A stretch of 63,983 bases of DNA, filler included, from Porpidia crustulata (lineage: Eukaryota), in NCBI GenBank assembly GCA_964255105.1. It is 3 parts of 3 records of this genome, joined end to end, with 100 filler letters (N's around TTAATTAATTAA, not from the genome) between each part and the next. Parts side by side here need not be neighbours in the genome. Positions count along the whole stretch, not along the records: positions 1 to 23,178 come from CAXUWE010000077.1; 2 more parts are not named here. One strand, written 5' to 3'. Of this stretch, positions 1,286-59,345 are shown piece after piece (positions within the stretch are counted from its first letter, which is position 1; every line of letters begins with the position of its first letter). The notes under the pieces are model-generated. The model had not been told where the DNA came from. It saw nothing but the letters and a program-made list of their open reading frames with translations, and searched no databases. Both the position numbers and the translations under genes were made by a program.

Positions 1286-2788
1286 CTACTTCGCTCCCTT
1301 CTGCCTCAGCATCTGCTTCATCCCCTCCGTCTTCGCCATATTCAACACCGTCATCTTCGAATCCGACACCGCATTGACATCAGCACGATAGGAAAGCAGT
1401 AACTGCACAATATTCGTATGCCCGTTACCAACCGCCCAATGCAGAGCCGTCCATTGATACCGTGTCCGCATTGACGCATTCGCTCCTTGCTCCAGCATCC
1501 GCTTCACCTCATCATACCGTCCTCCAGCCGCGGCCCCGTAGAGCGGGAACTCTCCTTTTGCATCGAGGAGGTTGAGGTTTTTATATACAGGAGCGGCATG
1601 GTGAATAGGGTTCGCTGCTTTAGTTGATGAAGTTGTACTCCTGTAGATTTCCTCAAGTCGTCGGGAGAGGCCCGAGCGCTCCGTTTCGGATTCACGGAGG
1701 CGGTCGTTCAGAAATCGCTTCTCGGTATCGAGGCGGCGCTGGAGATCATCTAGTTGGGTTTTGGAAGTGGATTTAGTTTGTTGGAGGTCGATTTTGAGTT
1801 GTCTGATCTGCTGTTCGGCTTGCTCGAGTTTTCGGCTTAGGTCTTGCTTCTCCTGTGCTTTTAGGACTGTTTCTCGATCTTGTTTAGCAACAGCAACTTT
1901 CGTTGTTTGAAGTTCGGTTTTGAGGCTGGCTAACTCTTGGCTTTGTTTAGCAAAAGAATGTTTTGTTGTCTGAAGCTCGGTTCTCAAGTTTGTCAGCTCT
2001 TGATTTTGTTTAGGGAAGGTATCCTTTATTGTCTGAAGCTCGATCTTCACGTTTGCCAGCTCGTTGTCTTTATCTTTGATGATGCTGTGCAGCCGGTCTG
2101 TGGCCATTTTTGGACGGGTTATTGCCTGGTTTTCATCAAAACCGGTCAAATTTCCAATCTTTCCAACGAGTTCTTTAGTAATATTGAGATAGATGCTTTC
2201 ATCACTGTCTGAATCTTGAATCCGGCGAACATTGACTGTCGGCAACAAGGCGGCGAAGGCGGCCTTCAGTTCGGCTTCCCTGCGGATTCCTTCATCAAGC
2301 GTCCGAAGTCGGTCCCACAGAGTGGTCACAACAACAACGTTGCCGCGAGATTCCGATGCTAGCAGCGTCTGAAAGGTGGCCGATCTCTGTGCTGCATCTT
2401 TCTTTTCATTTGTCTCCCGAATGTCCTGGAGATATATCAAACCATGAACAGTACGTTTCGGCTGTCCCGGTTCACGTGCTATGGCATTGTTGACGGCATC
2501 TACCAGTTCAGTGTCTGAGCTCAGAGATGCCGGGATATCTACCAGCCACACTGCTCTGTCGTTGATGACGGTCTCAAATACGTTGGCTGTAGACTGGACG
2601 CATCGGTCGCTGCACTCTGCTTCAGGGGTAACGCCGGTAACTTCTTCGATAAAGAGATTACGTTCTGGTCCAAAGAGACCCAGCAGAGCGATAATTATAG
2701 GGTTCTTCATTACAAACGGAGTGTCCGGAGACCTGGATTAATCCATCAGCGCCCATCAAGAAAATTGCATTGTATCAGGGGCTTACAT
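1286..2788 (-). CDS. Degenerate P-loop G-domain, coiled-coil and ankyrin-repeat protein
   Basis: 474-aa ORF. The N-terminal region follows the fungal G-domain pattern (IIALLG..., VWLVDIP, GLIYLQDI, NVVVVTTLWD). It is followed by 21-aa coiled-coil repeats and ankyrin repeats (GEFPLYGAAAGG, WTALHWAVGNGHTNIVQLLL). The likely start codon is split AT|G by intron 2786-2733. Confidence 0.75.
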
Positions 2789-5155: not shown

Positions 5156-5821
5156 CTAGACGTACGTCACTGTGAATTTCCCCGCCGTCTCTGATACAAT
5201 CGCCGTCTTCCGCGCATCCTTGAATTCCACTTTGGCGAATTGACTGGATTCCTTGGGCGGCTCCAAAACCTCCCCACGCTCGATTTGGGTGGTGGTGACA
5301 AAGATAGTTCGCTTGGGTTTGAAAACATAGTCGACGGCGGCCTTGAGATCAACGACAGCAATCGGGGTAAGCTGGCCACCGACCTGCTCGCGTGCCACAC
5401 CGACGACGTAGTCATTTGGCTCTCCAAATCCAGAATCGGTGCCGAGCGAAAACGTGCCTGTGCCTGCACTGGTACCGTCCTCATTGATTCCGAAGTTCGT
5501 ATCCAGCAAGAACTGAGACCCTCTCGCTTGCTTCAGACCGATAGTGGCCGGTAAGCTATTGACGACGGAAATTGCATCACCAGGTTTGACTTCTGAACTA
5601 AATTGAGAGGAGCGGCCCACGAAAGCGTGGAATGTGGGAGTACATCTGAACGTGTCTCTGCCACCGCGAGGGATTGCGAGGCTCTTGTACCAGACGACAG
5701 GATACGTTGTCTGCAGGCCACTCGTGCCGGAGATTTCTGGCTGTTCCGCGTAGACGTTGTAGAATTTTGCGGGGCCACCTGCCGTATTTTTATTTTCAAT
5801 AATGATGGTGTTGTTGGACAT
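5156..5821 (-). CDS. Small intronless beta-rich hypothetical protein (221 aa), possibly RhiA-like
   Basis: Uninterrupted ORF MSNNTIIIENKN...GKFTVTYV with a beta-strand pattern. It is visibly homologous to the N-terminal domain of the divergent neighbouring gene. Confidence 0.7.
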   Translation of the reverse strand: MSNNTIIIENKNTAGGPAKFYNVYAEQPEISGTSGLQTTYPVVWYKSLAIPRGGRDTFRCTPTFHAFVGRSSQFSSEVKPGDAISVVNSLPATIGLKQARGSQFLLDTNFGINEDGTSAGTGTFSLGTDSGFGEPNDYVVGVAREQVGGQLTPIAVVDLKAAVDYVFKPKRTIFVTTTQIERGEVLEPPKESSQFAKVEFKDARKTAIVSETAGKFTVTYV

Positions 5822-6274
5822 CTTGAGAATACTACTGGATGGAGTATGTATCAAAAGTAGGCGAGGTAATGAGAAAGATCCAACTAAGAAGATTTTTGGC
5901 TTACAGGAGTGGCGGCGTGACTTGTCGAAAGATTCAGGCGAGAGACTGGGGGGTGCACCATTTTATATGCCGGCTGAGGATGTGGCATCGAGGGCCAAAT
6001 TCATACGATGTGATGGGATCGAGCCTTGTCCATGCTGATTCGCGTCTTCTCAAAGAGTAAGAAAGCTCATCAAGGCCGAAAGAGCGACGACAGATCTGGA
6101 AGGTGGGGCTAGGATTCTCTTCGTTGCTGACTGTCAAAATCGTGATTGAATTTCTGATCAAATGCTCATCAGCATTGTGATCTTGCCTCTGAAAGAAAGC
6201 CATCTATTCAAAAGACCGTCCTTTCCTTGCAACACGTACCATCTGTGCAAAGAATTTAGATTTCACTCTCCAGC

Positions 6275-8512
6275 ATGGTGAGTTCACAAGGGCAACTGCG
6301 TACTTGCACCGTTACTGTGCAAAATTTCTATCCAAGCATTGATCCTCGAGGCTATTGTGTTTGCGCCAGCACACCTACAATCCGTGGGGGGCCCAAAATT
6401 TACGTACCGGTGTGTTATAAGACCAGTAAACTGAACGTCGACGGTAGAAGGACATTCAGATACGACGATGAATACTACGCCTTCATCGGCGTCCGCCATT
6501 CAAATCCCAAAGTGCACATTGAATTGATCCAGAAGACTAAAACACCAGTCAAATTAGGCTCCGGCAAAAATGACGGTCAGATCGTTACTGCCCACTTCCA
6601 GGATTCCGCACCAAAATTTTCATCCGACCAGAGCGTCGACTCCCCCAAAAACACATTCACAATTACGTGTGACGTTGAATGTCCTGAACTGCCGGCGGGT
6701 CAGCACTATGTGGTTGGTGTCGCTCAGAAGTTCGATCTTGATGTCGTCGCCATCGCAGCGGTCGATTATAAAGACGGAGAAGAATTCCAGATAGCCCCTG
6801 CTGAGTACAAAAACATTCGAGTTTCTACGGGTGAGGAGGTCGGCGATATCCCGCAGACCAGGAACGCACCGTTTGATATACACATCCCCAAAAACAAAAC
6901 CAGCATCTCGATTTACGAGATTTTTCTGGGCAGATTTCAGGACCACGACCCTCGGGTGAACGATGGCGAGTCAGCATCCCAGCAAGCTCGGGCTCGGGTA
7001 CGGCCTGAGGTACGGCCTGATGAACGCCAGCCCACGCAGCAGGGTATGCCGCGCAATGCCAGTGAACGTGAGGAGAAGGTCCGTCAGCAGACACAGTCCG
7101 AAGCTCTTCCCTACAAGGCGAAAGAGTTAGGCTTCACTTCGAAGAACCAGGTAGGTCCAACCTCTACAATGGCACTTGCGTCCCATGAAAGCCAAGAATA
7201 GACACTGACATACGCTTCCCTACAGTACACGGCATATAGAGGATTTGTGAAATTCAACAATGACCATCTATCAAAATTCTACACGGATCGAGTGCTGCAA
7301 GAGATGGCCAAACAAGTTGACACGTGGATTGACGCTTTAAGCGATGTTGAAGAAGCAGGAAGTGATACCGTCGACATGCTCTGTCTTCTGAGTTTGTATG
7401 ACTGTGTGCTATTGCTTGGTAAGCAATTTCCGCCCTTTCATTTAGGCCAAAAGCTATTCTGGCACAACAGCGTGTGAGTGCTGAATTGAGGGCTCTTGCT
7501 TAGACAATAGCAATTCCATGCGCATCTTCGAAAACGGAAACCGTGTTAAGCAGATGTCTTCCATCTGCCGTACGATCGTCCAGGTAGAATCAGTCCTGAG
7601 TAACACCAAGAATGTGAAGTTGGAATTTCTCGGTGAGAAGGTCAAGGGTGTAGAGATCAAGAGTCTTGAGCAGGTTGAAAGCCAGCTGGCAAATATGGAG
7701 ACTGTTGTATCCACGCTTTTGGGGACTGCACTGAGGAACAAAATCCTTGATGATCTTGTCTACAAAGTCGCTTCCGCAGAAAAGCCTCGACCACTTTTAG
7801 TTAGCATCATCACAGATGGGCGGGTGAGTGAATAATCTTAGGCATTCCTTCCTCTTTGCAGCATAGATCAAAGGCGGCTCGCTAATAATCAATGCATATG
7901 TCAGCCAGAAGGTGAAAGAAGGGTGGAACTCGAAAAGCAAATGATAGCTTGCAAAAAGGAGCTCACCCGCCGCAGGGGACTCGGCGATAAACGTAAGCAC
8001 TGCTCTAAGGCCACGAGACACGACGGTAGTACCTAATATCTCCGAGTCCACTAGACGTAGTGTTTCAGATATCACAAGTAGGCAATAGCGAGTTAGCTAA
8101 GAAATATCTAAACGATCTCGCCGATAAAGAGGAGCTCAAAGACATCCTTCACTGCACGACATGTGAGTGAAATGGATACATTTGAACTACAAGAAACCAA
8201 GATTGACTAATTTTCCACCAATTGAACCAGATCTGGATGTGAATACTGCCTGCGATGACCTGGAAGATAATCTGGGCGAATACGTCGCGGTACGTTTGTT
8301 CCTTCATCGTTCCGAGACAACGCTAGGTCTTTCACCATGGCCGACGCTAATATTAAATATGTGCAGCCTATCAATAAGCTCGCTGGAGCAATTTTTGCAA
8401 AAGTGAGTTGTGCTTTGCGTCACGAGAGACCGCTTAAGGATTTTCTGCTGACGGCGAATGACAGTTCAATCGGAAGACGGATTGGGAAATGGCTGATTCA
8501 GGGAGCAGCTAG
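6275..8512 (+). CDS. Beta-rich domain fused to a C-terminal von Willebrand factor A (VWA) domain; multi-exon
   Basis: Exon 1 spans 6275-7150. Spliced downstream exons give YDCVLLL-D-NSNSM (MIDAS DxSxS), LGTALRNKIL, RPLLVSIITDG-R-PEGE and VFQISQVGN, typical of fungal VWA proteins. The 3' end is uncertain. Confidence 0.7.
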
Positions 8513-27920: not shown

Positions 27921-30271
27921 CTACGAATCCTTTTTTCCATCCTCTTCTCGATCCCTACACATCTTCTGCAACATTTCTTCGATCCGTCTCGTTGAAGCCT
28001 CCAGTTGCTCTAGTCGTTCCTGCACCTCGCCTCCACCATGGTCATGCAAGATCTCTGTCAGTTGTTCAGTCAATCCAGCAAATGGTCCAATGGACTCTCG
28101 TCGGCTTGGAATTTTCTGATGTGTGCTGCCACTAGAAGTATCGGGACGCCTTTTTACTCTTCGAGGATTGCCGGCTTCCAGACTGACAGCCCTCATGTTA
28201 TTCTCTGCCGCTGCCTCCTCCAAGATTTCTTGAGGTACGTCTGAGTCAAAGACCGCTTGGATATCCCCGTGGACCGAAAATCGGGAGATATCCCACGCGG
28301 ATATGAGATTGCGAAGACGCGACGGTCGGTACGGTTTGCGTTTGGTGCTAGCCCACAGAGACTTGCGTTCATAGACGCTGATAGCAAGAAGTAGTGGAGC
28401 ATTGAGAACCCTGATGCCTGTGACATTAATCTTATGGAACCATCGCGGTGAAAGGACACACTTTAATGGTAGTAGAATACATAGGGCTAGCACATTAAAT
28501 GGAGGCTGGTATGCGAATATAGCATCACTCTTAACGCCCTCGAATGTCAGGACTGCACGACGAAATTGTATCTCTGCGCTTGCATTGGAGACTATACTGG
28601 AAAAGGTATTGCTAAGCATGGAAACGAGTATGGTCAGAAACAGAGTGTTTCCAAGGAATGCGAAGGTAACCATTAGAATCGGTCCGAGTAGCCAGTGGAA
28701 GTCCACTGATCTCTGGATACCAGTTCCATCAAGGCCAAACCATACCTGGAGAGAGCGAATTAGGCTATTGAGATTGTTTGAGGAAAGTAGAAGGGTAGAT
28801 TAAAGAGAATTCATACCCAGAGCATCCACTTGGAAATTGTAATTGCGTGATGATAGCCATCACTAAGCCAGATCATGGACAGCAAAAAACCTCCAAAACA
28901 CCAGACGGCCAGAACTGATAGCACTGCAAAGTTCGCCATCATTGCTCTCAGCGACACAAAAAGCATGTTTTCGGGTAACAGATTGAATGCCAGCCGAGGA
29001 ATGAGCACGGGCGCCGCGGAGGAAAGTAGGTGTAAAGCTGTTTGGCTCGATTTCTCATTTCCACTGATTGAACCTTGTATTCGAAGAACAAGATAGAATG
29101 CATAGAGGACTGCGAAAGCAAAGTCGAGAAATGACCATAGATTTTGGGTATATATTTGCCATCCATGCTCAAGAATCGATCCAAGCTCCTCCAGCACCCA
29201 TCCGAAGGCGTAGATGGTGAACAAAAGCTCATAGGTTGTGAACTTGGTATTTTCTTGATGTTCCATTACCCCAACATACAGAGCTAGTAGCACGAAGAAC
29301 TGAAAGACGTCTAACATGTTGCGCGTTCGTGGTACAGTCAGTCGATATTGATTTAACAAGGGGGCTTCCCTAGGATCGTAGAGGCTTATGGGCTTGTGTT
29401 TGTAGTGATCTGGTAGAATGTCCATGAAAGAAGAAGGTGTATATACTATTCTCCCGTGGTAGATAGCGTCCACAACTTTCTGGCAAGCTGGGGAGCTCAG
29501 GAATGTTTTGGATTCGGATATAATTCCAATCTCAAGTGCCGTGGACTTTCTTTCGTAACCACCTCGTTTTTGCACTGCCCAGTGGAAAGCTTTGTTTTCC
29601 TGCAAAATATGATCTGGGGCATTTTGGAAGGGTTCAAAGCCAGCGACCAGAATATTAGCTAGCAATAGCAGTCCGTGGCGTCCGGGATTATCCTCGTCAT
29701 ATCGTCTTAACACCCGATTGGCAACAAGTTCACAGAGAAGGCCACGGGTCATGTTAACGCTTTGATGATGAGCTTGATAAGTTTGCTCGCGTAGAAATTG
29801 GACTCGGTTCACAAGGAGACAATAAACTACAATTTGATGAAGATATTAGATAAAGTAACGTTACGTTGACTTGGGTCAGATCGCACCCATTGAGATGTCT
29901 TTTAGATCATATAGTCGATCCACAAGTGGGCGGACTGTCGAAAGATTCATCCTTGGAGATCTTAATTGCTCTAGGCTATAAGGATCATCGATGCAGGTTG
30001 TAATCTCTCGTCGAACGCTAGAACAAGAATGGGGGTCAGCAGTTTCTCTTTTTGACAACCTTGTACGCTATGAGATATTACAGGCATACAGCGCTTACCG
30101 ATGGATGGTATTGTAGACAGGCAAATGGGAGTGTGGGTTAGGTGGACAAGGCAGGCTACTCGTCCAGGACAAATCTCCGTCATCGTCAGGTAACAGCGAT
30201 TCTTGTTCCGCGTCGATGTCATTTTCCTGCAAAGCACCATTCAACCCTTGACCAAATCTGTAGTTCTCCAT
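27921..30271 (-). CDS. TRP-family non-selective cation channel (YVC1-like)
   Basis: Four exons. Contains IDDPYSLEQLRSPRMN, SALEIGIISE-like KSTALEIGIISESKTFLSSPACQKVVDAIY, multiple TM helices, and GNTLFLTILVSMLSNTFS...EIQFRRAVLTFEGVKSDAIFAYQPPFN. Confidence 0.9.
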
Positions 30272-35052: not shown

Positions 35053-38000
35053 TCAGTCCACTGTTTCTTCGTCCCATCGCGCTCCACGGCTACGCAGTAG
35101 GTAATGAACATCATCCTTATTGCATGCACTTGCCACCTTTAATGCGCTCCTACCATAAATATCAAGATCAACGCCCCTCTCAAGCAGTAACCAAATAACG
35201 CCTTTATGACCCCTCTGTGATGCCGCCACTAATGCGTCCCCACCATACACATTAAGGTCAACGCCCCTATCAAGCAACAGCTCAATAACTTCAACGCGAC
35301 GCCATTCTGATGCTGCCTCCAAAGCAAGCTCATCACGTACAGTATGTTCCATCCCATCAGGCAGCCACTTCATTATTCTTGCGATAGAGAGATTGTGCTG
35401 CCTCGTTCAACGCTCTTTCACCACATACTTCAATATCGACGCCCTTATCAAGCAGAAGCTTAACAACTTGAACGTGACCTTCTCTTGCTGCCGCCATCAA
35501 TGCGTTCTCACCATTCATATCAATATCGACGCCTCTGTCAAGCAGCAGCTGAAAAGCTTCAGCATGGCCCCTTTCTGCTGCCGCCATCAATGCACGTTCG
35601 CCATACAGATCAAGATCAACGACTCTATTAAGCAGCAGCTTAAAAATTTCAACATATCCCCATTTCGATGCCGTCACCAATGCGCTCCCACCGTGCATAT
35701 CAAGATCAACGCCTCTATCAATCAGTAGCTCAACAACTTCAATATAACCCTCTCCTGATGCCGCCACCAAATTCTTCCAGCATGCATGTTAATATTAACG
35801 CTTCTCTCAAGCAGCAACTCAACGACTTCCATGCGTTCCCATGATAAGAGTCCCATCAATATCTCTTCACCATTCATACCAACATCAACGCCTCTATCAA
35901 GTAGCAGCTCAGCAACTTCAACATGGCCATATTGTGATGCCGCCTTCAATGCTTCCTCACCGAATGTGCTAACATCAGCGCCTCCTTCAAGCAACATTTT
36001 GACAACCTCCTCATCTTTTTGAGATGATGCTGCCTGCAGCGCAGAATTATCAGGTCCACCTTGATAGTTTATATCAGCGCCTCCTTCAAGCAGTTTTTGA
36101 AAATATTTTTGTGTCCTTTATTCGATGCCTTCAGCAGTGCAGTTTCATGAGTGCTGCCTGGAGCATTTATATCAGCGCCTCCTTCAAGCAGTATTTGGAC
36201 AATCTCCTCGTATCCTTGATACGATGCAGCCTGCAGTGCAGTTTCATAATTTCCACCTCCAACCTCGATATCAGCACCTTCTTTGAGTAGTAATTTAACA
36301 ATCTCTTCATGTCCTGAACACGATGCAGCCTGCAGTGCAGTAGCATACATTCCATCTTTAGCATTTATATCGACATCTTTTTCGAGCACCATTTTCACAA
36401 TTTTCCCGTGTCCATTCAACGATGCAGTCTGCAGTGCAGTACCATATTCTTCACACCAAGCGCGTACATCAGCCCCTTCTTCAAGCAGCAGGTTGACAAT
36501 TTCCTCATATCCTTTAGACGATGCTACATGCAGAGCAGTACTAGAATAATTACCATGCGCATTAACGTTTGCTCCGAGTTTAATTAGTCTTTCGCATACA
36601 TTTAGAGAGCCTGCATTTGCGGCGATATAAACCAACGGCTTCTCGTTATTGTTTCTTTGATTTGGATCAAAGATGCATGAACTCCACCACGTTGATAACG
36701 TACGGTAGAACCCGAAATGACAAATTCCAAACAGTGTCGTTGAGGATGGAAGTAGTTCTTCTGCATAATCTAATTGAGTGTACAGATCCCCAGGGTCTCT
36801 GAAATCCATTCTAAGCAAAAGTATGATCCTATGCCAATCCGTATATGGAGCCCCACTGTTGTTCATAGATCCGAGAACATTTTCCAATAGTGTACTTATT
36901 TGGCTTACATCATCGGCTTCCTCGCATATTACAACATGCTTTGGCCAGGGCACCATCACATATCTCAGAAGCTCTTCCAGTCCCGTAGTAAGATCTCCAC
37001 GTGGCACGCCGTCAACGACGCCGTCAGCGACAGCATTGTAGCTGTAAATAAGGGGTGCGTTAAGGAGCAATCGAAGACAAACTCGGGCAAGATGATCGTC
37101 TACTTGCACGATGTTCAGGCGGCTCGTCTCAAGATATTCCTGGACCGATAAATGCGAGAATCGACAAGTGTTTGATTCTGAATCATCACCAGCAAATTTT
37201 TGCAGAATTTGAGTACATGGCTTATCTCGATATCTATCTGATCCGTTGCATCTGCTTGAGGATCTCGACATACTGCAGCAACTAGTAGTTCCGCTGAAAG
37301 AGGCTCAAGTGAGCGCATGACCCACTGAAAAGCTCGCTCGGCGATCATGGATGCACTTCCTTCAAAGTTCCGTATTCTTTCATATATTTCATCATATGCG
37401 TTCAACAGTCCAGAGGGAAGTTTGCCGAGGCGAAGTCGGATAGCGCTGTCACGATCCATTTCCAAAAGCTGTTCGATCTGAAGGGATGCCCATTGGAACC
37501 TATGACCGTGCTTTAATGACCGAGTCTTACTATATAAGAACCGGCTTCGCTACTTACATACCTTTACTCTCTTCCAGGATGACTGCAACAATTTTCTTCT
37601 TAAGCTCACTCGACAGCTTGATCCGGCGGCTCTCGTGATCTCTTGTAATCATTACGTTCACAAATGTTGCTATGTCTTTTTGGTTATCCGTTGCCTGAAT
37701 GCACACATTCGGCCCTTTTTCGAGTCGCTCCGTAATATTTACGTCCGGTCGACTTGATATGAAGATCTTGATTGGTCTTCGGGAATTGTAGACAACTTCA
37801 CAAAGTGTTTCGATGGTTTCCTTATTATCATCACATTCGTCGAGCGCATCGAGAATTAAAGTGTTTGCGGATAATTATTAACGAGTTCGAGCAATAGACC
37901 TGCACACTCTTTCATGTCAAGATAGCCAGATGCAAAGCCCCTTTGCTTCTTCTTACGGTAGAGTTGAGTAATGGAGGTCTGGATTGAACTGCCATCTTGC

Positions 38001-39362
38001 GCCATCGAGAGCTGCCTCACAAAGCTGCGCAGTATCGACACTGAATCTCGGCGATTGATTTGATTACGGTCGCAATAGAAGTAAGCCAGCGCCTCATCGT
38101 TCGGTTGACTTCTAAGCACTTGGACCATATCATCGACTACCGTTGAGACGAGCCTAGTCTTACCAGCCCCAGCTGCTTACGTTAGATTGGCACTTGGTAA
38201 GGATAAGCACAATTTCAAACAAGGGTGACTCACGAATACCATGCAGCCAGAGCATCGAGGACGCACTTGATCTTCGCCACTGACAATATACCTCATGCAT
38301 CAATAGCCATTGGCAAGTATTTGCAACTCGTCCTCCCCTCGCCGTCCTATGGTTTTCCTCATAAGGAATAGGGGAGATCCAGCAGAGAATATTAAACTGT
38401 TCAGCTTCTTCTATCGTGTCCCAAAGCATTTTAACCCTATCGTCAATGCGAACAATTGGATCCTGTAGCTCTTTCAACAAATGTTTTAGTCCCTGGACCA
38501 CCTGCTCTCTGGAAGATTCGTGGAACACATGAGCATGCATACTCTCGCATGTTGCAGCCTCTTTGAATACCCGATCTTCCAGCTCTCTACAGTTTTGGAT
38601 GTAGTCGAGAACTTCATCCGGCTTCACAATTGCATGAACAAATCTCTTAGCGGTGTTTTGATTGTAATGTAGGTTGGCGCTTGTAAGAAATGTTAATATT
38701 GCAGCATAAAGCGCAACCAGCGCTACCCGCAGGTTGTCCAAGGCTTGGCCCCCTTTGCTGATTATCTGCAACGACTGACTATTCTTTTATTAGTCGCACA
38801 ACTTTATGATTGGTGTCAGAAATATGCCTACTTGCAGCAGAAATCTTATGCCAGCCCAAGGTAATGCTAAGTGAACGGGATCGTAATTGACTATAACGTC
38901 TCCGATTTCCTTGAACTTGTGGAGCCATGCGAAAAATTTTTCCGCCACATCTCTTAAAATCACCTGATGTCCATCGATCTCGACCTTCCAACGTTGTTCT
39001 TCGCACTCTGTCCTCTTTTGCTGCGAGAGGGCACACAGATGATCGATTATATCCCGCGAAGGCTGTTGTGGCACTTGATGTGCCGCTCTATGCTTAGCTG
39101 ACAGACTTTCCAAGGCCCTCGCCCATAGATCTGTGGATGTGGAGCCCCAATCTGTGTTGTTTGATGGGACAGATGCTTCCGCAGTCTGTGTAAACACCGG
39201 AGCCGTATCGCTTGAAGATGATGGATGTGTCAAGGTTGATCGAGGAGACGAATCCACCTGAGTATGGTGGATAGCCGGGGCTTGCGGTCCTCCTGCATCA
39301 GGGCCCTGTTTGGTGATGCGTGCCTTGAAGTGCTGCTTGATTGCCTGACGGATGGGTATCAT
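35053..39362 (-). pseudogene. Fungal NLR-like NACHT-ankyrin gene with multiple frameshifts
   Basis: Has the N-terminal ALPWAGIRFLLQ helical domain, TCQWLL, Walker A (WLHGI-PGAGKT), YFYCD, Walker B (LILDALDEC), IFISSRP, MFQWASLQI, LPSGLLNAYDEIY, FSHLSVQEYL and many ankyrin repeats. Frameshifts occur at about 37860, 37185, 36100, 35775 and 35370. Confidence 0.85.
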
Positions 39363-42300
39363 TAGGTCAAGCAATTTCTATTATCATCAGCGCTGTCTCA
39401 ACAGGTAGGATACAGTCTACCAGTGATCACGACAATGGCATGACAATGGAACCTTCTTGGAGTGCGCTGGAAGGCCATGCCTTCCCTGGTGAGGCTGACA
39501 GAGCTGCGGCAGACACGGGTACCCCTCCCCACCCCTTTATGTTATGTGTCTTTGTTATCTACAACACTGCACAGCAAGATCGGAAAACATTTTAACTTGC
39601 AATATCTAAACGCGAGACAGATGAAGACATCTCAGAGTCACGATACTTCCGTCATGAATCAGTCACGAGGAACATTGCGATAATTGAGGGTCTAATGTCG
39701 TCGACGGTCAATCCATAGCGCGCGTCGTGGAACATTGCAATATATAATCGATCCACTCATCGTGCGTCGTGAGGACAATGATCTGATATAAATATCAAAG
39801 CATCTCTGTCGTAATGTGTCTGCAGATTTCGAGCACTATTACTATTTCCTAATGTTTAACTACTAGCGATGCTGAAATCATGCTGATGTCTCAAGATCTT
39901 CTTGATATAACATTATTTCTTGTCGCAAGTACGCAGTCATTTTGTATAAGCTCATTTGTCTCGGTTGAAGCTCGACGTTTGATCTCGTCACATTCTACAG
40001 GCGGATGCAATGATTACTTCTACGATGCAGCCCATACTGGCCTGCACAGAATCCGCAACGGACAGGCGTGGGAGAAATCGAATGGACCTAGATAGTAGCC
40101 GCTCTTCGTCTATCTCAGCGCCCGGATTCGCATGTGTTTACTGGATTGATCTCGCCTCATGTCTACTCTTCCAATTGCACAATGTCGGAGGAATGATACT
40201 CAACGAGAATGGACGCCCGATGAGTGGCGCATCACTAACCGGGGTTTTAAATCTCATTCAGCCACATAGTCTACCCAATGGCGTGCAGGGGTATTGTGCT
40301 TGATTGAAAATCTGCGTCAGTCACACCACTTCGCCATCAACGAGGAGACTACGATCGAATAAGACGAAGTCAAATTCCGAGGTTCGCCGATGATAAAATA
40401 TATAGCAAAGATGAGAGTTCTCCCCATGAATGAGGGAAATTTGGGGTGTAACGAGTGATTTACAGAGGTGAAAATCTTCGGCTGGCGATTGGACGACTGG
40501 GTTAAGCTGTACAAAAAGATTAGGCAGTCGAGGATGCACAAAACCCATCCACAAAGGACCTTCATAGTTCAAAAACCATGAACGTCGAGCGTGGTCGAAA
40601 AAAATGGGTCGACGAGTTGATTGAGAGGCTTTTATCCCAAGCAATAACCCTAACGCTTGCATGAGATCGCATCATTGATATGCTGCTTTCCGGAAAGCAG
40701 TCTGCATATTAACTTCAACAGCTGTCCACAGTAGGTATAGCATCAATAAGCTTGTCATGAGGGGATAAACGGCCCCTCAACCATGAACGAAGCTTGCGTC
40801 GCTCTCTTTCGCCTTTCTCAATCTTTCTCAGTATATAATCAGGTGGATCTCAAAACTCAGCGTCTATTACAAAGACATCATGCTCTAATATGTCTACGTT
40901 CTCAGTGGTGTAATCTGAAAGTATAATATTTCGATGATCAAGTCCTGCATACGACTCAAAGATGGATCTCCACGATTGACAAGGAAAAATGAGAAGATAA
41001 AATCCCCAATACGATGACGCTAGTGGAGAATCTCCTATATTTCCTGTTCCACCCCCCTAGATAACTTCCCAACAACAACATCAATGCCAATGCCATCAAT
41101 TCCATACCTGATCCGCCAACAGAATGTACATAGACTCTACTGTCATCATACAAAGCGAGGTGATGAAAGTCAGACAGTATTAAACCGACTTGTACTAACT
41201 ATCGATGCCATTTTTAATCTTGGGATCAATTCCAGCCCTCCTGTCTGCCAAATTACAGTCATCGTTTCTGAGCTGTCTCTGAACTTGCTCGCTTCTCATC
41301 ATCATTCCTCTACGACTCACTACAGCAGGCACAATAGGCCTACTGAAGGGTTCTTTTCCAAGTCTTCAAAATCCTGGTCTTTGGTAGCATCTTTCGGGTA
41401 GAAAACATGGACGAAGGCTGAGGATTCCCTAGTGCAATGGCGGCATCAATGCAGACGGATACGAGTGACTCGAAGATTAAGGTGTACCTAAAAAGCGAAG
41501 CGAAGATGATCTAGGACAGGGAGGAGTGTAAAAGCTTTTAGCTTCAAGACATTAAGATCCCGGATAACGCAATTGTAGGAGACACAGCCGAAAATGTCTT
41601 CAATGGAAATTGGTCTCAGGTGGATGTGGCCTTAGAAGGAACAACCTCGAGAGTAAAAGTGAAGATGCTGTTCAAAGGCCTGAAAGTCAATTCAGGCGAC
41701 GAGTAAATCGCGACAGTGCCTGTCAGGCTGTGACAGGTCCTTGCGGCCAGCCAGATGTGTCCTAAGGTTACGAATCAAGTTCTCATTGAGTACAACGAGT
41801 TCCATCTTCACGATATCAAGCCATTCTAAGTGAGGATTAAACGGATCGGTAATTGTATAAGTACCTACCTACAAAATGCTTGTTACTCAACTCGCTATGC
41901 ACTTCTACTCCTTGACCACCAAGTCAGACTCGCAGCACTTGTATGGTTCCCTACGCCATGCGCGTAATCGATTCAACCGGTATTCAGACCGGTCAATCCC
42001 ATTTCACACAAGAATACCTAAGCCCAGGGAAGGTAGAGTATGAAGTTCCGTCGAAACGCGCAAACTATTTGGATATTCTCATCTACTTTGTTGACCATTC
42101 AGATTGATCGAAGAAGTATCAGACGAGCACTATCTTTTAGAAAGCAATAGCGCAACGAGAAGGCCGAAAAATGAATGCAAGTAACCCGGTAGATGGGATG
42201 CTGTTACTGCTCAATGCTAAATTATACTCTCCCATGGCGCCCTTGTATATCCATATATAAGGGCTTGGCGTCGGTGTGAGTAGCTTCTATCCTACTTCGA

Positions 42301-43995: not shown

Positions 43996-46422
43996 ATGGT
44001 CTCCCAGCCTCCACCCTACGAAGATGCTCCCGATATACCGGTAGCAGCTTCTGAGAGTAAATCCGAGAGCCCTGGATCGCAAGAAAAGAATCCGAAAGAC
44101 TTTATGAATGAGAAGGATGTTTTTGCAACTGAAATTGACACTACTCCCCCAATCTACAATGCTGAGGGCGACGACCATTTTGGCGAGACTGCGGTCCTCA
44201 CGACAGCGAAAGATCTCGTGACGCATATCATCCACGTTCAAGATGATCCTTCGCTGAACCCTTGGACATTCCGCATGTTTTTTATCGGTATGGGAAAATA
44301 CCCTGCCTCTTTAAATAAAGCTGATAATCTCTACTTACAGGCATCGGCTTGGCAATCTTTGCTTCTGTCCTTCAAGAGATATACTACTTCAAGCCGCAAG
44401 TAATCTACGTCTCCGTCGTTTTCCTAGCAGTCACTAGCTATATTCTTGGAGAGGCGATGGCCTTTTGCATTCCTAGGCGGGGACCCATAGGTCGCTTCTT
44501 GAACCCCTCCCCTTTCAATTCCAAGGAGCACGCTGCGATGGTCATCATGGCTTCTGCCGCGGCTGCAAACGCTGTTGCCACCGAGATATTAGCAGCGCAG
44601 AAACTATACTACAACATGGATCCCAACCCTGGCGCAGCCATCTTCCTGGTGATAGCCGCTCAGCTTCTCGGATACGGAATCGCAGGTCTACTTCGGGGAA
44701 CGCTAGTACATCCGACCAAGATGCTATGGCCGATAAACTTACCTGTCAACACCATGCTGGAGACGCTTCACAGGGACAAACACGAGACCAAGAACCGCCT
44801 CAAGGTCTTTTACATTATCTTTGCCGTCATCTTCGTATGGGAGACACTCCCAGAGTATATGATGCCTGTCCTGACGGGGGTTTCTATCATGTGTCTTGCC
44901 CAAAAGAATAGTATGGTCTTTACAAATTTGTTTGGGGGCTCCCAGGGCAATGAAGGCCTTGGCTTTCTATCCCTTTGTCTTGATTGGCAATACATTGCCG
45001 GACTAGGGTCACCGCTATGGGTCCCATTGCAAACCTTGACAAACAGTTTCATTGGCTACCTGGGAGGTATAATATTCTTCATGGGGTTGTATTATTCGAA
45101 TTCGTGGCGATCTCAAGACTTTCCTTTTCTTTCTCAACTGCTATATGACACCAGCTCAAATTCAACCAATTTCGCTCCGTATAATGTATCACTTATCCTT
45201 ACACCAAACAACGATATCGATCCCGCCGCGCTGAATGCCAACGGGATTCCCTGGCTTACTGGAACATACATTGGATATCTGATTACAACAAATATGGGCA
45301 TGGCAGCAACATTTGTTCACATGTTTCTGTGGAACTACGATGATGTCAAGGCAGGCTGGTCCTTTTTCACGCTTGCAAATCTTAAGAGTCTCTCGAAACC
45401 ATCGACTTGGATGTTTTGGAAAGGGGGTAAAACCAAAGAGGAGCGGAAACTAGAAACTCTGAACGACGAAGCAATCGATCCTCATTACAAACTAATGGTG
45501 GATTATGACGAGGTACCTCAGTGGTGGTTTGCCATGGTCTTGCTTCTTAGCTTCTCTGTTGGTTTAATTACCTTGTACTTTGTGAATTCAACAATTCCGT
45601 GGTGGGGATACATTGTTGCCAACCTACTCTCGGCAATCATGATTCTATTCTTTGGAGCGCAGATGGGGATGACTGGATTCCAGTTTAATCAGCAACCATT
45701 GATTCAGATGCTTGCTGGATATATCCACCCGGGTAAACCGCTCGGTAAGCAGCAATCCCTCACCTTCCTAACTTTAATACTTGCACGAACTTACCTCGTT
45801 CAAAGCAAACATGTACTTCACCGTCTTCGGCTTCAACTCCATTCAACAAGGTCAGCTCCTGCTGCGCGATCTCAAACTCGCCCAGCTCGCCCACCTCTCC
45901 CCCAAAGCCACCTTCACGGCGCAAATGACCGGCTGCATCATCGGAGCCATCTTCAACTACGTAATGATGACGAGCATTGTCACCAACCAGCGCGCCATTT
46001 TAACCTCCATTGCCGGCTCTAACATCTGGTCCGGGCAAAATGTCCAGCAGTACAACACTCTCGCCGTTGCTTGGAGCATCGCCGGCGATCTCTTTTCCGT
46101 TGGCGCACGCTACCAATGGGTGACCCTAGCCTTCCTCATCGGCATCGCCGTTCCCATCCCCTTCTGGCTCCTGCATCGCTACACCCGCCACCCCTTCTTC
46201 GCCTACATCAATCTCTCCATCATCCTCTGGTACATGGGTTTCCTCTTCGTCGGCATCAACAGCGCCGGCGTCAGCTACTACGCGCTCGGCTTCGCCGGCC
46301 AGTTCTGGCTGCGCCGCTACCACCCGCGCCTATTCGTCAAGTATAATTATCTGGTGTCGGCGGCGCTCGACGGCGGCACGCAAGTGTTGGTGTTTATCTT
46401 CAGTTTCGCGGTGGATGGGGGG
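43996..46422 (+). CDS. OPT-family oligopeptide transporter, 3' end lost in the gap
   Basis: DDPSLNPWTFRMFFIG, NPSPFNSKEH, QLLGYGIAGLLR, NEGLGFLSLCLDWQYI, YDEVPQWWF, PGKPL-ANMYF, DLKLAQ and KYNYLVSAALDGGTQ. Introns at about 44288-44340 and 45744-45805. Confidence 0.93.
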
Positions 46423-48236: not shown

Positions 48237-49648
48237 TCAGAGCCTTGATGCTTTTGGCCGCGCCGCGTTCACTGGCATCTTGACAGCGTCGATCCAAGCC
48301 TTGCTCATCCGTAGCATACCATCATCCGACTTCTTACTTCCATGCTCACGAATGAACGTCTCTTCATCAAGCCATCTTCCAACCATCTCTGTATCCAATC
48401 AGCAGTAGCATCCGCACACTCATCTGGCTGCTCAAAGACCAAAAGATGGCCGGACTTTGGCAGTACTTTCTTTTCTACCTTACCCTCTGTCACACCTCCA
48501 TTACCACCAACACCAACGCCAGTCGCTTTGACCTTCTTATCCTGGAAATGAGGTGGTGATAATGGGCTTTTGCCGCCAAAGACCCACAGCACGCTTGGGC
48601 GGAGCTGAGGGAGATTTCGCATGGTGATGAGGGATTCGGGACGGGATGAGTGGTTTCGCAACTCAATCACAGGGTCCCAATCGGGGAGTAGCAGCCGATC
48701 AAGTGTGACGTTCTGCGGATCAAAGCTGATTTGTGCGTAGCCCCATGCTTCTTGGTGTTTGCTAGTGGTCAATGTGACAGAATCTGGAGGGACCATTTTG
48801 TTCTTGCTAGGGTCGTAGAGAGCCGTCGGTACGGCTTGCAGGCCATGTCGTAGATACTTGGCAAGGGCGCGCTGGTCCCATGCTGAAAAAGCCTTCCGCA
48901 GTTGCATCTCGGCTTTGACTCGCGAATCCCAGACGTCACGTCGCATGGTAGATCCAAGTGCAGGGTTTGGTCCGCCATGATTCTCATCCAATATCACAGG
49001 TTCAATGAGTACTAGTGTCGACAGGAGACGAGGATGCATGATGGAAAGATGCACTCTGTAAAATTTGAATTGACATCGTCTGGATTTGGTTGACGAACGT
49101 ACAGTTGCGCGCAGCCCATACTATGAGCTATACCAATCAGAGGACGAGGCATGTCAAGTCGAAAGTGATTTATCATGTGAAGCAAATCACGAGAATGATC
49201 GAACCAAGATGCTATTCAAAAGCGTTAGCATCTCATTCAACGCAAGTGATGTGTTCGACATGCTGCTGTCTCCTTGCACATCCTCGTTCAAAGTACCACT
49301 AGCACCCTGATTCGAGCTGTCTGCCACCCAAACACTTCGTATATGTACACCACAGGATCTTAAACGAGAATAAAGCTCATCCCAAAAGGGCTCATAGGTC
49401 TCCTAAAGCTGCGTTTAGTACTAGCATCTTTGTTTGTAGACGTTACAATTAACTTTCGGAAACCCATTACCGTGCACGCCTATAATGGTCACAGCATTTT
49501 TAGGAACTGGTTTCGACACATCCAAGGGGATATATTGCTTGATAGAGAGTTGCAAGGCGTCTTCTTGGCAGTACCTTGTTGCATTTGGATATTCTCTGAT
49601 GTGCTGCCCATGGATGACATGCTCGACTGTGGTGAACGCTGTAGCCAT
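48237..49648 (-). pseudogene. Alpha/beta hydrolase (AflJ/'toxin biosynthesis protein' type) with a late frameshift
   Basis: EHVIHGQHIREYPNAT, HGNGFPK-ETYEPFWDEL, the nucleophile elbow IAHSMG and GHLLVFE. A 1-nt loss at about 48381 diverts the C-terminus; the restored frame ends ...RPKASRL*. Confidence 0.8.
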
Positions 49649-50002
49649 CAGACAACGTAATGAACATTCCAATGGTGTTGATGATATCGCGGGAAGCTCT
49701 TTGCGAAGCTACATATACGTTTAGAATGCCGGTTCCAGTTGTTACATGGCTGAATCACATGATTGGAATAACCGATAATCCATATACTCTAGCCTTGCGC
49801 GGTTATGGTTTGCTACATCGCGACTTTCTTCGAACCTCAAACATGGGAACAACGGACGTTACAGCATACAGCAATAAGATATCCATGCAATTCTTGAGGA
49901 CAAAAGTACCAAGCGCGCCTCGCTAATTTCATCCGCTTCGAGGCACCCACTTCATGAGATTGAGATTGAGATTGCTTCGCAGACCACATTCTTATGCTAA
50001 TT

Positions 50003-51859: not shown

Positions 51860-52190
51860 GGTTTCACTGGACCGTGGTCTCAAGTATGTGATCTATTGTT
51901 GATGGCCGAAGGTTACATAGCACTCATGGATCAGGAGATTATGCGAGCGACGAGGGAACGAAGGAACTAGCGGGGCAGGACGTAGGTAAGTTTCGCTGAA
52001 TGTTGATCGACTTACCAGTTATTGTTGCGGCCAAGTACTAAAGAGCAACAGCAGGTTTGTCCTGATTATACACGGTCACTTAAGCAGATGCATGGACGAA
52101 AACTTCGTTCCCGTCAATCTCCAGTATCTTTATGCCTACTTGCCTACCCACTAAGAGTGCATCTTTCAATTCCACCCTTGGCCCTTTATT

Positions 52191-53463
52191 CTAAAAGGAA
52201 TGATTGACGGTATCACCCATCTTGCTTCTCTCCATAGAAGTCACCTGTATCTCTGATTGCATACGAATATCCACCATACTTATCGGACTGATTCCGCCAC
52301 ATTCTACACCTTGTTCTATGCTCGCTCTATTGCCCACGTATTCCTTCAGATTATGAGACTTGAAATCAGAATCATCTTTCGAAGATATTCTAGATAACGT
52401 TCGTCGCCAAGGACCTCGGGACTCGACTGTCGCGACTCGCTTTTTTGAGCCATTGAGAAGTGGCTGAAAGAAGGGGACGGAGGCCAATCAGACAAGCTGC
52501 AGAAAGGTACATGCCGCTCTCTACCAACGTCCAGCTGGACAACGAAACATCGGTCCCTTAAACTTATTAGTAAAATCTAGAAATTGACTGAAGGTTGACT
52601 TGCAGGTTGGGTCTTTTCTCGAAGATTGAGCATCGCTGAAGAAAGAGTGTGTGCGTATGCATGATGCGACAAGGCCCCTGAGTAGGTGAGCATTTATCAA
52701 CGCAATGGACTGAACTAGTCACTGACAGACTGCCTGAGAGGAAGGCCAGTGCAATGCCTGCTTTCCGTGCCCTTGAGGCCTGAAGCTTCCATATAGTATA
52801 CATAGGAATAACCATAATGGCCACATCCCCGAGAATGTTCAGGATTCCGAGCTCCTAAAGAAGGCAAACAGATCGATGCATTTGGCACCCGAGATCCTAG
52901 TGTTCCAAAGGGACACAATGGGCCTGCACTCAAGAAGGCCAGTAATGATTTGAGATACGACGAAGCCAACAAGATAATACAGAAGTATCCAACTACACAA
53001 TCTTGTCACTCCACTGGGAAAAATCCTGAGATATAAGGCGACTATTGATATCCGCGACAATGCATTGGAAATTGCAGTGAACCAGCTAAGAGCATAGACC
53101 AGCTTGCCTCTCGTCACCAAGGTGTGTGGACTTCTTGTGACTACGGCTTCCACGTGATGACCAGCTCCTCCCTCTGAGACAAGAACTGTAAAAGGCGTTA
53201 GGATGAGCGACCAAAGCATCGCAGATAGGGTAGCACTTACCGTAGCAAACTATACTGGCGCCCACAACCAGGATCCAGGCTACCGGCAGAAGAAATTCAT
53301 CCCAACCTCGTGTAGCTGGGGTCAAGACACGAACGTATAACCTCAAGGCCACCAAGAGCGTTGCAATGATCAATATGAAGGTGATAGCAGCCAGAAGCTG
53401 GCCAGAGCAATTTTCTTCTAGATAGGTAAGAGTAAGTCCTTGAGATTCTGAAATAGTAGCCAT
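52191..53463 (-). pseudogene. PTH11-like integral membrane protein (fungal rhodopsin domain), frameshifted
   Basis: ALRLYVR...GWDE, SRISIVALYLRIF, ECRPIVSLWN, NILGDVAIMVIPM..IWKLQ and WTLVESGMYLSAACL. Frameshifts at about 52849 and in the A-run at about 52441-52446. Confidence 0.8.
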
Positions 53464-59313: not shown

Positions 59314-59345
59314 TCATTGCCTCATTGCCTCATTGCCTCATTGCC
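59314..59345. repeat. 8-bp tandem repeat (tcattgcc)x4
   Basis: Seen directly in the divergent P450-DMATS intergenic region. Confidence 0.9.

What the first reader, a model, noticed from the sequence alone, without database searches (positions are those of the whole stretch)
5156..8512. Head-to-head pair of paralogous beta-rich domains, one free and one fused to VWA: candidate two-component system
The two divergent genes are about 450 bp apart and share a domain. PVVWYKS...GGRDTFRCTPTFHAFVG matches PVCYKT...DGRRTFRYDDEYYAFIG, and YVVGVAREQ...PIAVVDLK matches YVVGVAQKF...AIAAVDYK. Neither has an obvious signal peptide. The domain pattern recalls bacterial RhiA-like proteins (from memory). The second protein adds a VWA domain with an intact DxSxS. 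A shared promoter plus a shared domain suggests hetero-oligomerising partners, as in divergent fungal defence or toxin pairs. I know no described function for this pair.
Basis: partly seen in the sequence, partly recalled or inferred. Interest (0 to 1): 0.7.

Follow-up and report, generated by a model that had tools for sequence, protein, structure and literature searches.

The report
Fungal RhiA-like gene pair, one VWA-fused
Two back-to-back fungal genes share a beta-sandwich domain first known from the bacterial rhizosphere protein RhiA, one of them fused to a protein-binding VWA domain, and this domain recurs in fungal proteins built like immune or cell-death components.

Summary
Gene A (5156-5821, minus strand, 221 aa, one exon) and gene B (6275-8512, plus strand, 8 exons, 575 aa) lie head to head, 453 bp apart. 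They share a full-length ~220-aa all-beta domain; a profile built without the window sequences scores gene B at 124 bits, against 4.5 for the best shuffle.

It also matches both the rhiA- and rhiB-position genes of bacterial rhiABC-like operons.

Gene B carries a divergent VWA domain with a complete MIDAS. Its first Asp codon exists only after intron 2 is spliced out.

RhiA-VWA is an old Ascomycota architecture, seen in 19 cluster representatives. Other fungal members fuse the domain to HET, PNP_UDP, a lipase, S8, ankyrin or GTPase-TPR. All scaffold-type fusions fall in one clade, which holds gene B. All enzyme or death-type fusions fall outside it, with gene A.

The pair seems kept in one other organism, judged only from equal contig lengths. 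Physical interaction, expression and function could not be tested.

My reading is that the domain is a ligand-binding or adaptor module of fungal conflict-type proteins. This is a new variant of known kinds, of moderate interest.

The parts
5156..5821 (-). Gene A: single-exon CDS of 221 aa plus stop. It is a solo RhiA_N-family double beta-sandwich protein with no signal peptide apparent.
   Evidence: ORF and sequence. Identical to P0001, which carries precomputed PF27136. AF2 model has pLDDT 96.2 and is all-beta. Nearest relative is a Mytilinidion resinicola hypothetical protein at 56% identity.
5822..6274 (.). 453-bp intergenic spacer between the two divergent start codons. It is a presumed bidirectional promoter region.
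   Evidence: Coordinates. Promoter function is inferred, not tested.
6275..7150 (+). Gene B exon 1 (aa 1-292). It holds the RhiA_N-like domain (aa ~9-222, nt 6275-6946) and a low-complexity Q/R/E/P-rich linker.
   Evidence: Independent profile gives 124 bits. Six-frame scan gives 160 bits. Donor GTAGGT at 7151.
7226..7418 (+). Gene B exon 2 (aa 293-356 plus the first base of the D357 codon). It is a helical pre-VWA segment and the first VWA strand, ending ..CVLLL.
   Evidence: phmmer of the spliced C-terminal part aligns without break to P0094 residues 288-553. Splice sites.
7504..7823 (+). Gene B exon 3 (aa 357-463). It is the VWA core with MIDAS D357, S359, S361, T427 and D461.
   Evidence: Family profile A4, which has no window sequence, hits this ORF at 73.8 bits, profile positions 340-456. 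MIDAS columns are invariant in 13 of 13 aligned sequences.
7905..7992 (+). Gene B exon 4 (aa 464-492), VWA.
   Evidence: Splice model. Contiguous alignment to relatives.
8055..8162 (+). Gene B exon 5 (aa 493-528), VWA strand with the Q(I/V)SQVG motif.
   Evidence: Family profile A4 hits this ORF at 34.4 bits, profile positions 483-519.
8231..8289 (+). Gene B exon 6 (aa 529-548).
   Evidence: Splice model.
8367..8402 (+). Gene B exon 7 (aa 549-560).
   Evidence: Splice model. The LAGA motif aligns with relatives.
8465..8512 (+). Gene B exon 8 (aa 561-575) and the TAG stop.
Evidence: Splice model.

Best explanation
This is a divergently arranged pair of intracellular genes of the RhiA family in an ascomycete.

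Shown:
- Both proteins carry the same ~220-aa two-lobed beta-sandwich domain (Pfam RhiA_N).
- Gene A is that domain alone.
- Gene B is the domain, a linker and a VWA domain with a complete metal-ion-dependent adhesion site (MIDAS).
- RhiA-VWA is an old, widespread Ascomycota architecture.
- The same domain is fused elsewhere to modules typical of fungal immune or incompatibility proteins.

Inferred mechanism: the RhiA-like domain is a recognition or adaptor module. It may bind a small hydrophobic ligand, as the bacterial homologue PSMB1a does. It may also pair with a second RhiA-like domain. The VWA MIDAS would then tether a protein partner.

The pair would work as a scaffold-side component (B) and a solo, effector-side-type component (A) that meet through the shared domain or a shared ligand. 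This would belong to a stress or non-self response rather than housekeeping metabolism.
For: Identity:
- PF27136 is precomputed on gene A's protein and named RhiA_N by the Atlas.
- Independent profiles link A and B.
- The same profile scores the rhiA-position gene (91 bits) and the rhiB-position gene (63.6 bits) next to an annotated rhiC on an Agrobacterium vitis plasmid. It does likewise for a Phaeobacter plasmid.

VWA:
- The family profile hits solved VWA domains (4cn8 at E 3.6e-5, integrin I domains).
- The MIDAS is intact.

Architecture:
- 19 representatives plus gene B have RhiA-VWA. Named sources include Aspergillus, Clonostachys, Pochonia, Ophiostoma, Candelina and Mollisiaceae.
- Other fusions are HET (2), PNP_UDP, PGAP1-like lipase, S8, ankyrin and AIG1-type GTPase with TPR.

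Partition:
- In a tree rooted on the bacterial genes, all 21 VWA, ANK and GTPase-TPR fusions fall in one 40-row clade that holds gene B (SH-aLRT 91).
- All 5 HET, S8, lipase and PNP fusions fall outside it, with gene A.

Adjacent paralogues recur in this family:
- Bacterial rhiA and rhiB are 29% identical, E 1.7e-27.
- Pectobacterium has a four-paralogue island (PMC13490719, passages read).
- The relatives of A and B share contig lengths in another organism.

Ligand binding by a homologue: PSMB1a binds solanidine with Kd 0.103 uM (PMC13490719 abstract).

Precedent: in Podospora het-B, a beta-sandwich recognition domain is fused to HET and acts with an adjacent gene (PMC10890737, passages read).
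Against: - No interaction, expression or phenotype data exist for this pair.
- A and B are deep paralogues (24% identity), so adjacency could be inherited synteny without functional coupling.
- The partition of fusion partners rests on few independent fusion events, about 4 effector-type and 3-4 scaffold-type, and on branches with support 83-92.
- The window's own pair has no HET, NACHT or other death domain.
- PADLOC and NCBIfam give nothing.
- The fold has no solved relative from which to read a mechanism.
- Ligand binding was shown only for a distant bacterial homologue.
Confidence: 0.5

Rival explanations
1. Independent small-molecule binding proteins. Both genes would simply bind or sequester hydrophobic metabolites (plant, bacterial or fungal), as proposed for bacterial RhiA and PSMB. 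The two paralogues would widen the ligand range. The VWA would only anchor B somewhere, copine-like. There would be no A-B contact.
For: PSMB1a binds solanidine and salicylic acid (PMC13490719). Paralogue arrays occur in bacteria without any fusion. Solo forms dominate the family: 87 of 143 tree rows.
Against: This does not explain why the fungal domain is repeatedly fused to HET, PNP_UDP, S8, lipase, ANK and GTPase-TPR. It also does not explain why the fusion classes sort by clade.
Confidence: 0.25
2. Chance or merely inherited adjacency. The two genes would be neighbours left from an ancient local duplication and would now work separately. The apparent conservation would be ordinary microsynteny between related Dothideomycetes.
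For: A and B are only 24-25% identical and lie in different deep clades. Co-location is seen in just one other, related organism, whose A-like protein is close to the Mytilinidion protein. No other contig-length matches were seen among the roughly 30 looked-up proteins.
Against: Both proteins evolve fast (56% and 41% identity to their nearest relatives), yet the neighbourhood is kept. Adjacent paralogues recur independently in bacteria. In Aspergillus terreus an A-type fusion (P0028) and a RhiA-VWA protein (P0163) list the same 474,151-nt contig.
Confidence: 0.2
3. Binary beta-sandwich toxin. This is the first reader's toxin-pair idea: the two proteins would co-assemble into a membrane-damaging complex.
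For: The fold is all-beta. Weak structural resemblance to membrane-binding beta-sandwiches appears among many others, for example pneumolysin domain 4 at Z 4.1.
Against: No signal peptide is apparent. No fold match reaches Z 5, and the best matches cover one lobe only. Foldseek finds nothing. The characterised homologue is a soluble ligand binder.
Confidence: 0.05

Closest known systems
RhiA and RhiB of the rhizobial rhiABC operon (Pfam PF27136, RhiA_N)
   Same: It is the same ~220-aa all-beta domain over its full length. The family profile scores the rhiA- and rhiB-position genes of A. vitis and Phaeobacter plasmids at 60-96 bits. The proteins have no signal peptide. Two adjacent paralogues occur in both cases.
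   Different: The bacterial genes are co-directional in an operon with rhiC. From recalled literature, they are under quorum-sensing control. They carry no VWA or other fusion. The bacterial A/B duplication is independent of the fungal A-type/B-type split. The function of RhiA itself is still unknown.
PSMB family of Pectobacterium (PMC13490719, 2026; abstract and passages read)
   Same: [quoted passage not shown] They occur as paralogue arrays.
   Different: They are bacterial virulence-associated proteins shown to bind plant metabolites. No ligand is known for the fungal proteins, and the bacterial ones have no fusions.
Podospora het-B (Bh: HET plus lectin-fold domain; Bp: adjacent partner) (PMC10890737; passages read)
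   Same: It is a two-gene fungal locus in which a variable beta-sandwich domain provides recognition. The same logic would fit the RhiA-HET fusions found in Cenococcum and Lachnellula.
   Different: The fold differs (FB-lectin/actinoporin-like). The two het-B genes share no domain. The window pair has no HET domain, and polymorphism is unknown.
Copines (two C2 beta-sandwich domains plus a C-terminal VWA; recalled, not from a call)
   Same: The layout is the same: N-terminal lipid- or ligand-binding beta-sandwich lobes followed by a MIDAS-type VWA used for protein binding.
   Different: There is no C2 domain and no Copine-type VWA match. Only VWA, VWA_2 and vWA-TerF-like match, in 5-6 of 19 relatives. 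This is an analogy of design, not membership.
Fungal NLR/effector gene pairs that share a signalling motif (amyloid signalling; PMC9815663, title and abstract seen; details recalled)
   Same: Adjacent genes share a sequence element through which a sensor-side protein is thought to talk to an effector-side protein. One relative here has an NLR-like layout: RhiA, then GTPase, then TPR (P0080).
   Different: The shared element here is a 220-aa globular domain, not a ~20-aa amyloid motif. Neither window gene has a NACHT or NB-ARC domain. VWA and RhiA are not mentioned in that paper.

Membership tests
RhiA_N (Pfam PF27136) | Match to the family model over the whole domain | tested here: met
   The local Pfam copy lacks the model. 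However, PF27136.1 is precomputed on gene A's protein and its two relatives. For gene B, an independent family profile gives 124 bits over residues 9-222. The same profile hits the rhiA-position gene next to an annotated rhiC at 91 bits.
RhiA_N (Pfam PF27136) | Two-lobed all-beta sandwich fold | tested here: met
   The AF2 model of gene A has pLDDT 96.2 and 16 strands with no long helix. This agrees with the published description of PSMB and RhiA models.
rhiABC system (bacterial) | Operon with rhiB and rhiC under a LuxR-type regulator | tested here: not met
   This is a eukaryotic locus with spliced genes. There is no rhiC-like or LuxR-like ORF beside the pair. The only parallel is the presence of a second paralogue.
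VWA / von Willebrand factor A | MIDAS residues DxSxS...T...D | tested here: met
   D357, S359, S361, T427 and D461 align to columns that are invariant in 13 of 13 sequences and in 19 of 19 for D, T and TDG.
VWA / von Willebrand factor A | Sequence-profile similarity to established VWA domains | tested here: met
   Gene B's own exons give no Pfam VWA hit. Its C-terminal part matches relatives at E 1e-40 to 5e-50. The profile of those relatives hits solved VWA domains (4cn8 at 3.6e-5, 5a8j at 0.006, integrin alpha-1 at 0.016). Pfam VWA or vWA-TerF-like matches 5-6 of the 19 relatives.
Copine | Two N-terminal C2 domains and a Copine-type VWA | tested here: not met
   No C2 or Copine family appears in gene B's exons, in the 50 long relatives or in the 19 RhiA-VWA proteins.
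Fungal NLR (STAND) proteins | Central NACHT or NB-ARC NTPase with C-terminal repeats | tested here: not met
   No P-loop NTPase or repeat family occurs in gene A or gene B. One relative has a GTPase plus TPR (P0080). A separate NLR-like gene lies 30 kb away.
Heterokaryon-incompatibility (het) locus | HET or other death domain in the locus; divergent haplotypes under balancing selection | not testable with these tools
   Neither gene has a HET domain. Population data are not available here. RhiA-HET fusions exist elsewhere.
Beta-sandwich pore-forming toxins | Fold match to aerolysin, actinoporin or CDC-type domains | tested here: inconclusive
   Foldseek gives no match at E <= 1e-3. VIA-align against 48,161 chains gives a best Z of 4.9, and CDC domain 4 scores Z 4.1 among generic sandwiches.

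The most novel reading that the evidence does not exclude
The RhiA-like domain is a so-far unrecognised trans-kingdom adaptor and sensor domain of fungal innate-immunity-like systems. B-type copies (on VWA, ANK or GTPase-TPR scaffolds) would pair heterotypically with A-type copies (solo, or on HET, PNP_UDP, lipase or S8 effectors), possibly on binding a xenobiotic or sterol-like ligand. The window's head-to-head pair would then be a minimal sensor/partner cassette of this system. The bacterial rhiA-rhiB pair would be its prokaryotic counterpart.
Probability: 0.15. Interest if true: 0.8.

Novelty: new variant of a known kind. Interest (0 to 1): 0.5.

Why it matters
RhiA has been a protein of unknown function since 1989. 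The only biochemical clue, metabolite binding by Pectobacterium homologues, dates from 2026.

Three results here give concrete hypotheses for both kingdoms:
- The same domain is widespread in Ascomycota.
- It is most often fused to a MIDAS-competent VWA domain.
- It is otherwise combined with HET, PNP_UDP, S8, lipase, ankyrin and GTPase-TPR modules.

The result also adds a candidate domain to the catalogue of trans-kingdom modules in fungal immune-type proteins. My text searches found no mention of RhiA or VWA in the two fungal NLR and immunity papers I searched. No listed paper combined RhiA with fungal HET proteins.

The finding that bacterial RhiA and RhiB are paralogues, and that paired paralogues recur, makes a hetero-pair model directly testable.

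Tried and rejected
- **Local Pfam:** no family for gene A or gene B exon 1, and only sub-threshold noise on the VWA exons. PF27136 is absent from the local library.
- **Whole genome:** none is held for this window.
- **'Longer' word-index search with gene B exon 1:** none of 1331 candidates scored.
- **First AF2 model with 4 sequences:** pLDDT 42, discarded.
- **Foldseek against PDB:** 0 matches at E <= 1e-3. The top rows are viral spikes at TM 0.1-0.18 and are meaningless.
- **VIA-align wide:** nothing at Z >= 5.
- **PDB sequence profile for the RhiA domain:** best E 0.18.
- **Second Atlas search, leaving out PF27136:** no usable hit.
- **NCBIfam and PADLOC:** no hits.
- **Metagenome scans for context:** the alignment was too loose. 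P0009 gave none. The A-orthologue alignment gave none.
- **Genome-contig scan with P0083:** none.
- **tblastn of plasmids:** none for gene A and none for P0083.
- **Earlier findings of this scan:** nothing.
- **Sequencing runs:** no RNA holder listed. One DNA holder was found, possibly the source.
- **Complex prediction for gene A with the N-domain of gene B:** queue full, then declared unavailable. Nothing was folded.
- **The NCBI label 'transcription factor RfeF' on the A. terreus RhiA-VWA protein P0163:** the papers that mention rfeF give only expression and strain-list mentions. I could not check whether the A. fumigatus RfeF belongs to this family, so I treat the label as unverified annotation transfer.
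- **P0146 (1232 aa, LapA repeats):** it matched only a 55-residue stretch. I left it out as unrelated.
Full report
**What is in the sequence**

The window is fungal nuclear DNA. Genes are split by short GT..AG introns. The neighbours include a DUF7708/NACHT-like/ankyrin gene, a TRP-type YVC1 channel, an OPT transporter, and DMAT, P450 and PAL genes.

At the finding's coordinates there are two divergent genes.
- Gene A runs on the minus strand from ATG 5821 to the stop at 5156-5158. It has one exon and 221 aa.
- Gene B starts at ATG 6275 on the plus strand.
- From the three-frame translation and the donor sites I built an 8-exon model: 6275-7150, 7226-7418, 7504-7823, 7905-7992, 8055-8162, 8231-8289, 8367-8402 and 8465-8512.
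- The model gives 1728 nt and 575 aa with no internal stop, and seven GT..AG introns of 62-85 nt.
- The start codons are 453 bp apart.

Three results support the model.
- The spliced C-terminal 283 aa align without break to residues 288-553 of a 566-aa relative (E 4.8e-50).
- A family profile that contains no window sequence hits the exon 3 and exon 5 ORFs at the expected profile positions, at 73.8 and 34.4 bits.
- The invariant MIDAS Asp is recreated by the exon 2/3 junction.

No RNA data could be found, so the model is not experimentally confirmed.

**The shared domain is real**

BLASTP of A against B exon 1 gives 25% identity over 159 aa, E 2e-6.

A profile of 84 relatives that excludes the window's gene B row scores gene B at 124.2 bits (E 3.7e-40) over residues 9-222. 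The best of 1000 shuffles scores 4.5 bits. The reverse test, a B-type profile without the window row against gene A, gives 104 bits.

So the similarity is a full-length homologous domain, not two motifs. The window holds no third copy.

**What the domain is**

The local Pfam copy finds nothing. The protein collection lists PF27136 on gene A's protein and its two closest relatives. The ESM Atlas names that family RhiA_N, in clusters that are mostly bacterial. The Atlas recognition value was low, so this is a lead.

I tested the link independently.
- A member of the profile-search output (P0067) hits plasmid genes of Agrobacterium vitis and Phaeobacter inhibens by tblastn.
- In A. vitis the hit gene is followed by a second hypothetical gene and then by an annotated 'protein rhiC'. 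That is a rhiABC-like operon.
- The profile without window sequences scores the rhiA-position gene at 91 bits and also the rhiB-position gene at 63.6 bits, both full length.
- Phaeobacter gives 95.9 and 59.6 bits. The rhiA- and rhiB-position proteins are 29% identical, E 1.7e-27.

In addition, RhiA and RhiB are themselves adjacent paralogues.

**Fold**

With 85 sequences, AlphaFold2 gives a confident all-beta model of gene A: pLDDT 96.2, pTM 0.91, 16 strands.
- Foldseek finds no PDB match at E <= 1e-3.
- VIA-align against 48,161 chains gives nothing at Z >= 5. The best rows (TssJ, PepT extracellular domain, SPH proteins; Z 4.7-4.9) align only 80-99 residues, which is one lobe of a generic sandwich.
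- A sequence profile finds no solved relative.

The model fits the 'butterfly-wing beta-sandwich' described for the Pectobacterium RhiA homologues. One of those, PSMB1a, binds solanidine at Kd 0.103 uM (PMC13490719, abstract and passages).

**The VWA part**

Gene B's exons give no Pfam VWA hit on their own.

Iterative search within 38 extension segments of the relatives groups gene B's C-terminal part with 20 others. These stand for 19 distinct representatives.

An alignment of 19 such proteins has invariant D, T and TDG columns. As a profile it hits solved VWA domains: 4cn8 at E 3.6e-5, 5a8j at 0.0058, and the integrin alpha-1 I domain at 0.016. Pfam VWA, VWA_2 or vWA-TerF-like match 5-6 of the 19.

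Gene B has D357, S359, S361, T427 and D461 in the MIDAS columns. The site should therefore bind a metal and an acidic ligand residue, as established for VWA domains.

**Distribution and architectures**

The exhaustive profile search found 211 proteins at E <= 1e-3, 96 at <= 1e-10 and 24 at <= 1e-30. The best 150 were listed and analysed.

I scanned the 50 longest with Pfam. The partners found were:
- HET in 2 (Cenococcum, Lachnellula)
- N-terminal PNP_UDP_1 in 1 (A. terreus)
- N-terminal PGAP1-like lipase in 1 (Uncinocarpus)
- ankyrin repeats in 1
- Peptidase_S8 in 1
- AIG1-type GTPase plus TPR in 1 (Trichoglossum)
- VWA types in 4

Every one of the 30 looked-up proteins that carries an organism name is from Ascomycota. 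One search adds Clonostachys spp. and Mollisiaceae.

Many ~300-aa forms are exon-1 ORF calls of longer genes.
- The window's own P0004 (308 aa) is one.
- The 294-aa P0047 shares a 90% cluster with the 560-aa Pochonia protein P0159.

RhiA-VWA is therefore the commonest fungal fusion, and its count here is a lower bound.

**Phylogeny**

I built a FastTree of 143 domain rows. I dropped rows with fewer than 150 profile positions, P0004 as a duplicate of gene B, and the LapA protein P0146. The tree separates a mostly solo half from a fungal half.

Adding the four plasmid genes puts them as one clade (100) inside the solo half (63 rows, 98). That half is therefore the bacterial type, and the rhiA/rhiB duplication is independent of the fungal split.

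An IQ-TREE quick tree used the 72 fungal rows (near-identical duplicates left out) plus the four bacterial genes as outgroup.
- The fungal rows form one group (100).
- Gene A sits with P0002 and P0005 in the basal, mostly solo grade.
- Gene B sits with P0024 (40% identity) in a 27-row clade (99) nested in a 40-row clade (91).
- That 40-row clade holds all 21 VWA, ANK and GTPase-TPR fusions and none of the 5 HET, S8, lipase or PNP fusions.

A and B are thus ancient paralogues of two functional flavours. The caveats are few independent fusion events, moderate branch support, and a short tree search.

**Is the pair conserved?**

I could not fetch any fungal contig. The metagenome and genome scans found nothing.

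The cluster look-up gives indirect evidence.
- The closest relative of gene B (P0024, with its member P0155) and a close relative of gene A (P0005, with its member P0157) both list a Logan contig of 6957 nt and an ENA contig of 8340 nt.
- The window's own two proteins both list 23,178 nt.
- Equal lengths in two independent sources make a shared contig very likely. The genes would then lie within about 8 kb of each other in a second organism.
- That organism's A-like protein is close to the Mytilinidion resinicola protein. Orientation there is unknown.

A second lead comes from A. terreus. The RhiA-VWA protein P0163 and the PNP_UDP-RhiA protein P0028 both list a 474,151-nt contig. Adjacency is untested.

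**How it most likely works**

Shown:
- two intracellular-looking RhiA-family proteins
- one with a competent MIDAS VWA
- an old and widespread architecture
- domain partners typical of fungal immune or incompatibility proteins (PNP_UDP and HET are named as such in PMC10197012 and PMC10890737)

Inferred: the RhiA-like domain is a recognition or adaptor module. The VWA tethers a protein partner. The solo A-type protein and the B-type scaffold act together, either through heterotypic contact of the shared domain or through a common ligand.

The recurrent adjacency of paralogues supports coupling. It is seen in bacterial rhiA/rhiB, in the Pectobacterium four-gene island and in this pair.

The rivals are independent metabolite binders, inherited synteny without coupling, and a binary toxin. 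They are weighed in their own sections. The one direct computational test of binding was not available.

**Novelty**

Both domains and the fused proteins are already in databases, where some are labelled 'VWFA domain-containing protein'. I found no paper that treats fungal RhiA-like proteins.
- A search for PF27136 returned 0 papers.
- A search for RhiA with fungal/HET terms returned no listed paper holding RhiA together with the others.
- RhiA and VWA are absent from the one fungal NLR paper I text-searched, and VWA is absent from the fungal-immunity review, which I did not search for RhiA.

Supplements of these papers were not read. I class the finding as a new variant of known kinds, of moderate interest.

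Noticed in passing
L001:4001-5448 (A. vitis plasmid CP146241.1) and L002:3501-4945 (Phaeobacter plasmid NZ_CP010737.1): The rhiA-position and rhiB-position genes of rhiABC-like operons are paralogues (29-30% identity, E 1e-24 to 1e-27). Both match the RhiA-family profile over their full length. Both are annotated only as hypothetical proteins.
   Followed up: yes
L002:5729-7609: An S8 family serine peptidase gene lies convergent to the Phaeobacter rhiAB-like genes. A fungal relative (P0079) fuses the RhiA-like domain to Peptidase_S8. This may be coincidence.
   Followed up: no
window 36069-39377 (minus): There is an NLR-like gene. The ORFs carry DUF7708 and an NPHP3_N/NACHT-type P-loop start, followed by multiple ankyrin repeats. 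It lies about 28 kb from the pair.
   Followed up: no
window 1286-2737 (minus): The upstream neighbour of gene A is a 483-aa open frame. It has a long repetitive coiled-coil (the motif 'ELQTTK' recurs) and C-terminal ankyrin repeats. Its N-terminus looks like a degenerate G-domain start by eye only.
   Followed up: partly
window 48305-60998: This looks like a secondary-metabolism neighbourhood: alpha/beta hydrolase, AMP-binding C-terminal domain, aromatic amino-acid lyase (two ORF pieces), cytochrome P450 and a tryptophan dimethylallyltransferase.
   Followed up: no
window 27921-29845 (minus); 44328-46022 (plus); 62968-63723 (plus): These are a YVC1/TRPY1-type calcium channel, an OPT oligopeptide transporter and a replication factor C subunit. 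They are ordinary fungal genes that confirm the eukaryotic context.
   Followed up: no
P0076 (Candelina mexicana KAI9698533.1), alignment A4 columns ~507-527: The annotated protein has a 21-aa insert beginning 'GK' exactly where the window gene has intron 2, between ..LLL and the MIDAS Asp. It is probably an unspliced in-frame intron in that annotation, which would mean the intron position is conserved.
   Followed up: partly
P0163 (Aspergillus terreus): A RhiA-VWA protein is labelled 'transcription factor RfeF' by NCBI and UniRef. Papers on A. fumigatus rfeF (Afu4g10200) report CrzA- and calcium-dependent expression. Whether that gene belongs to this family could not be checked.
   Followed up: partly
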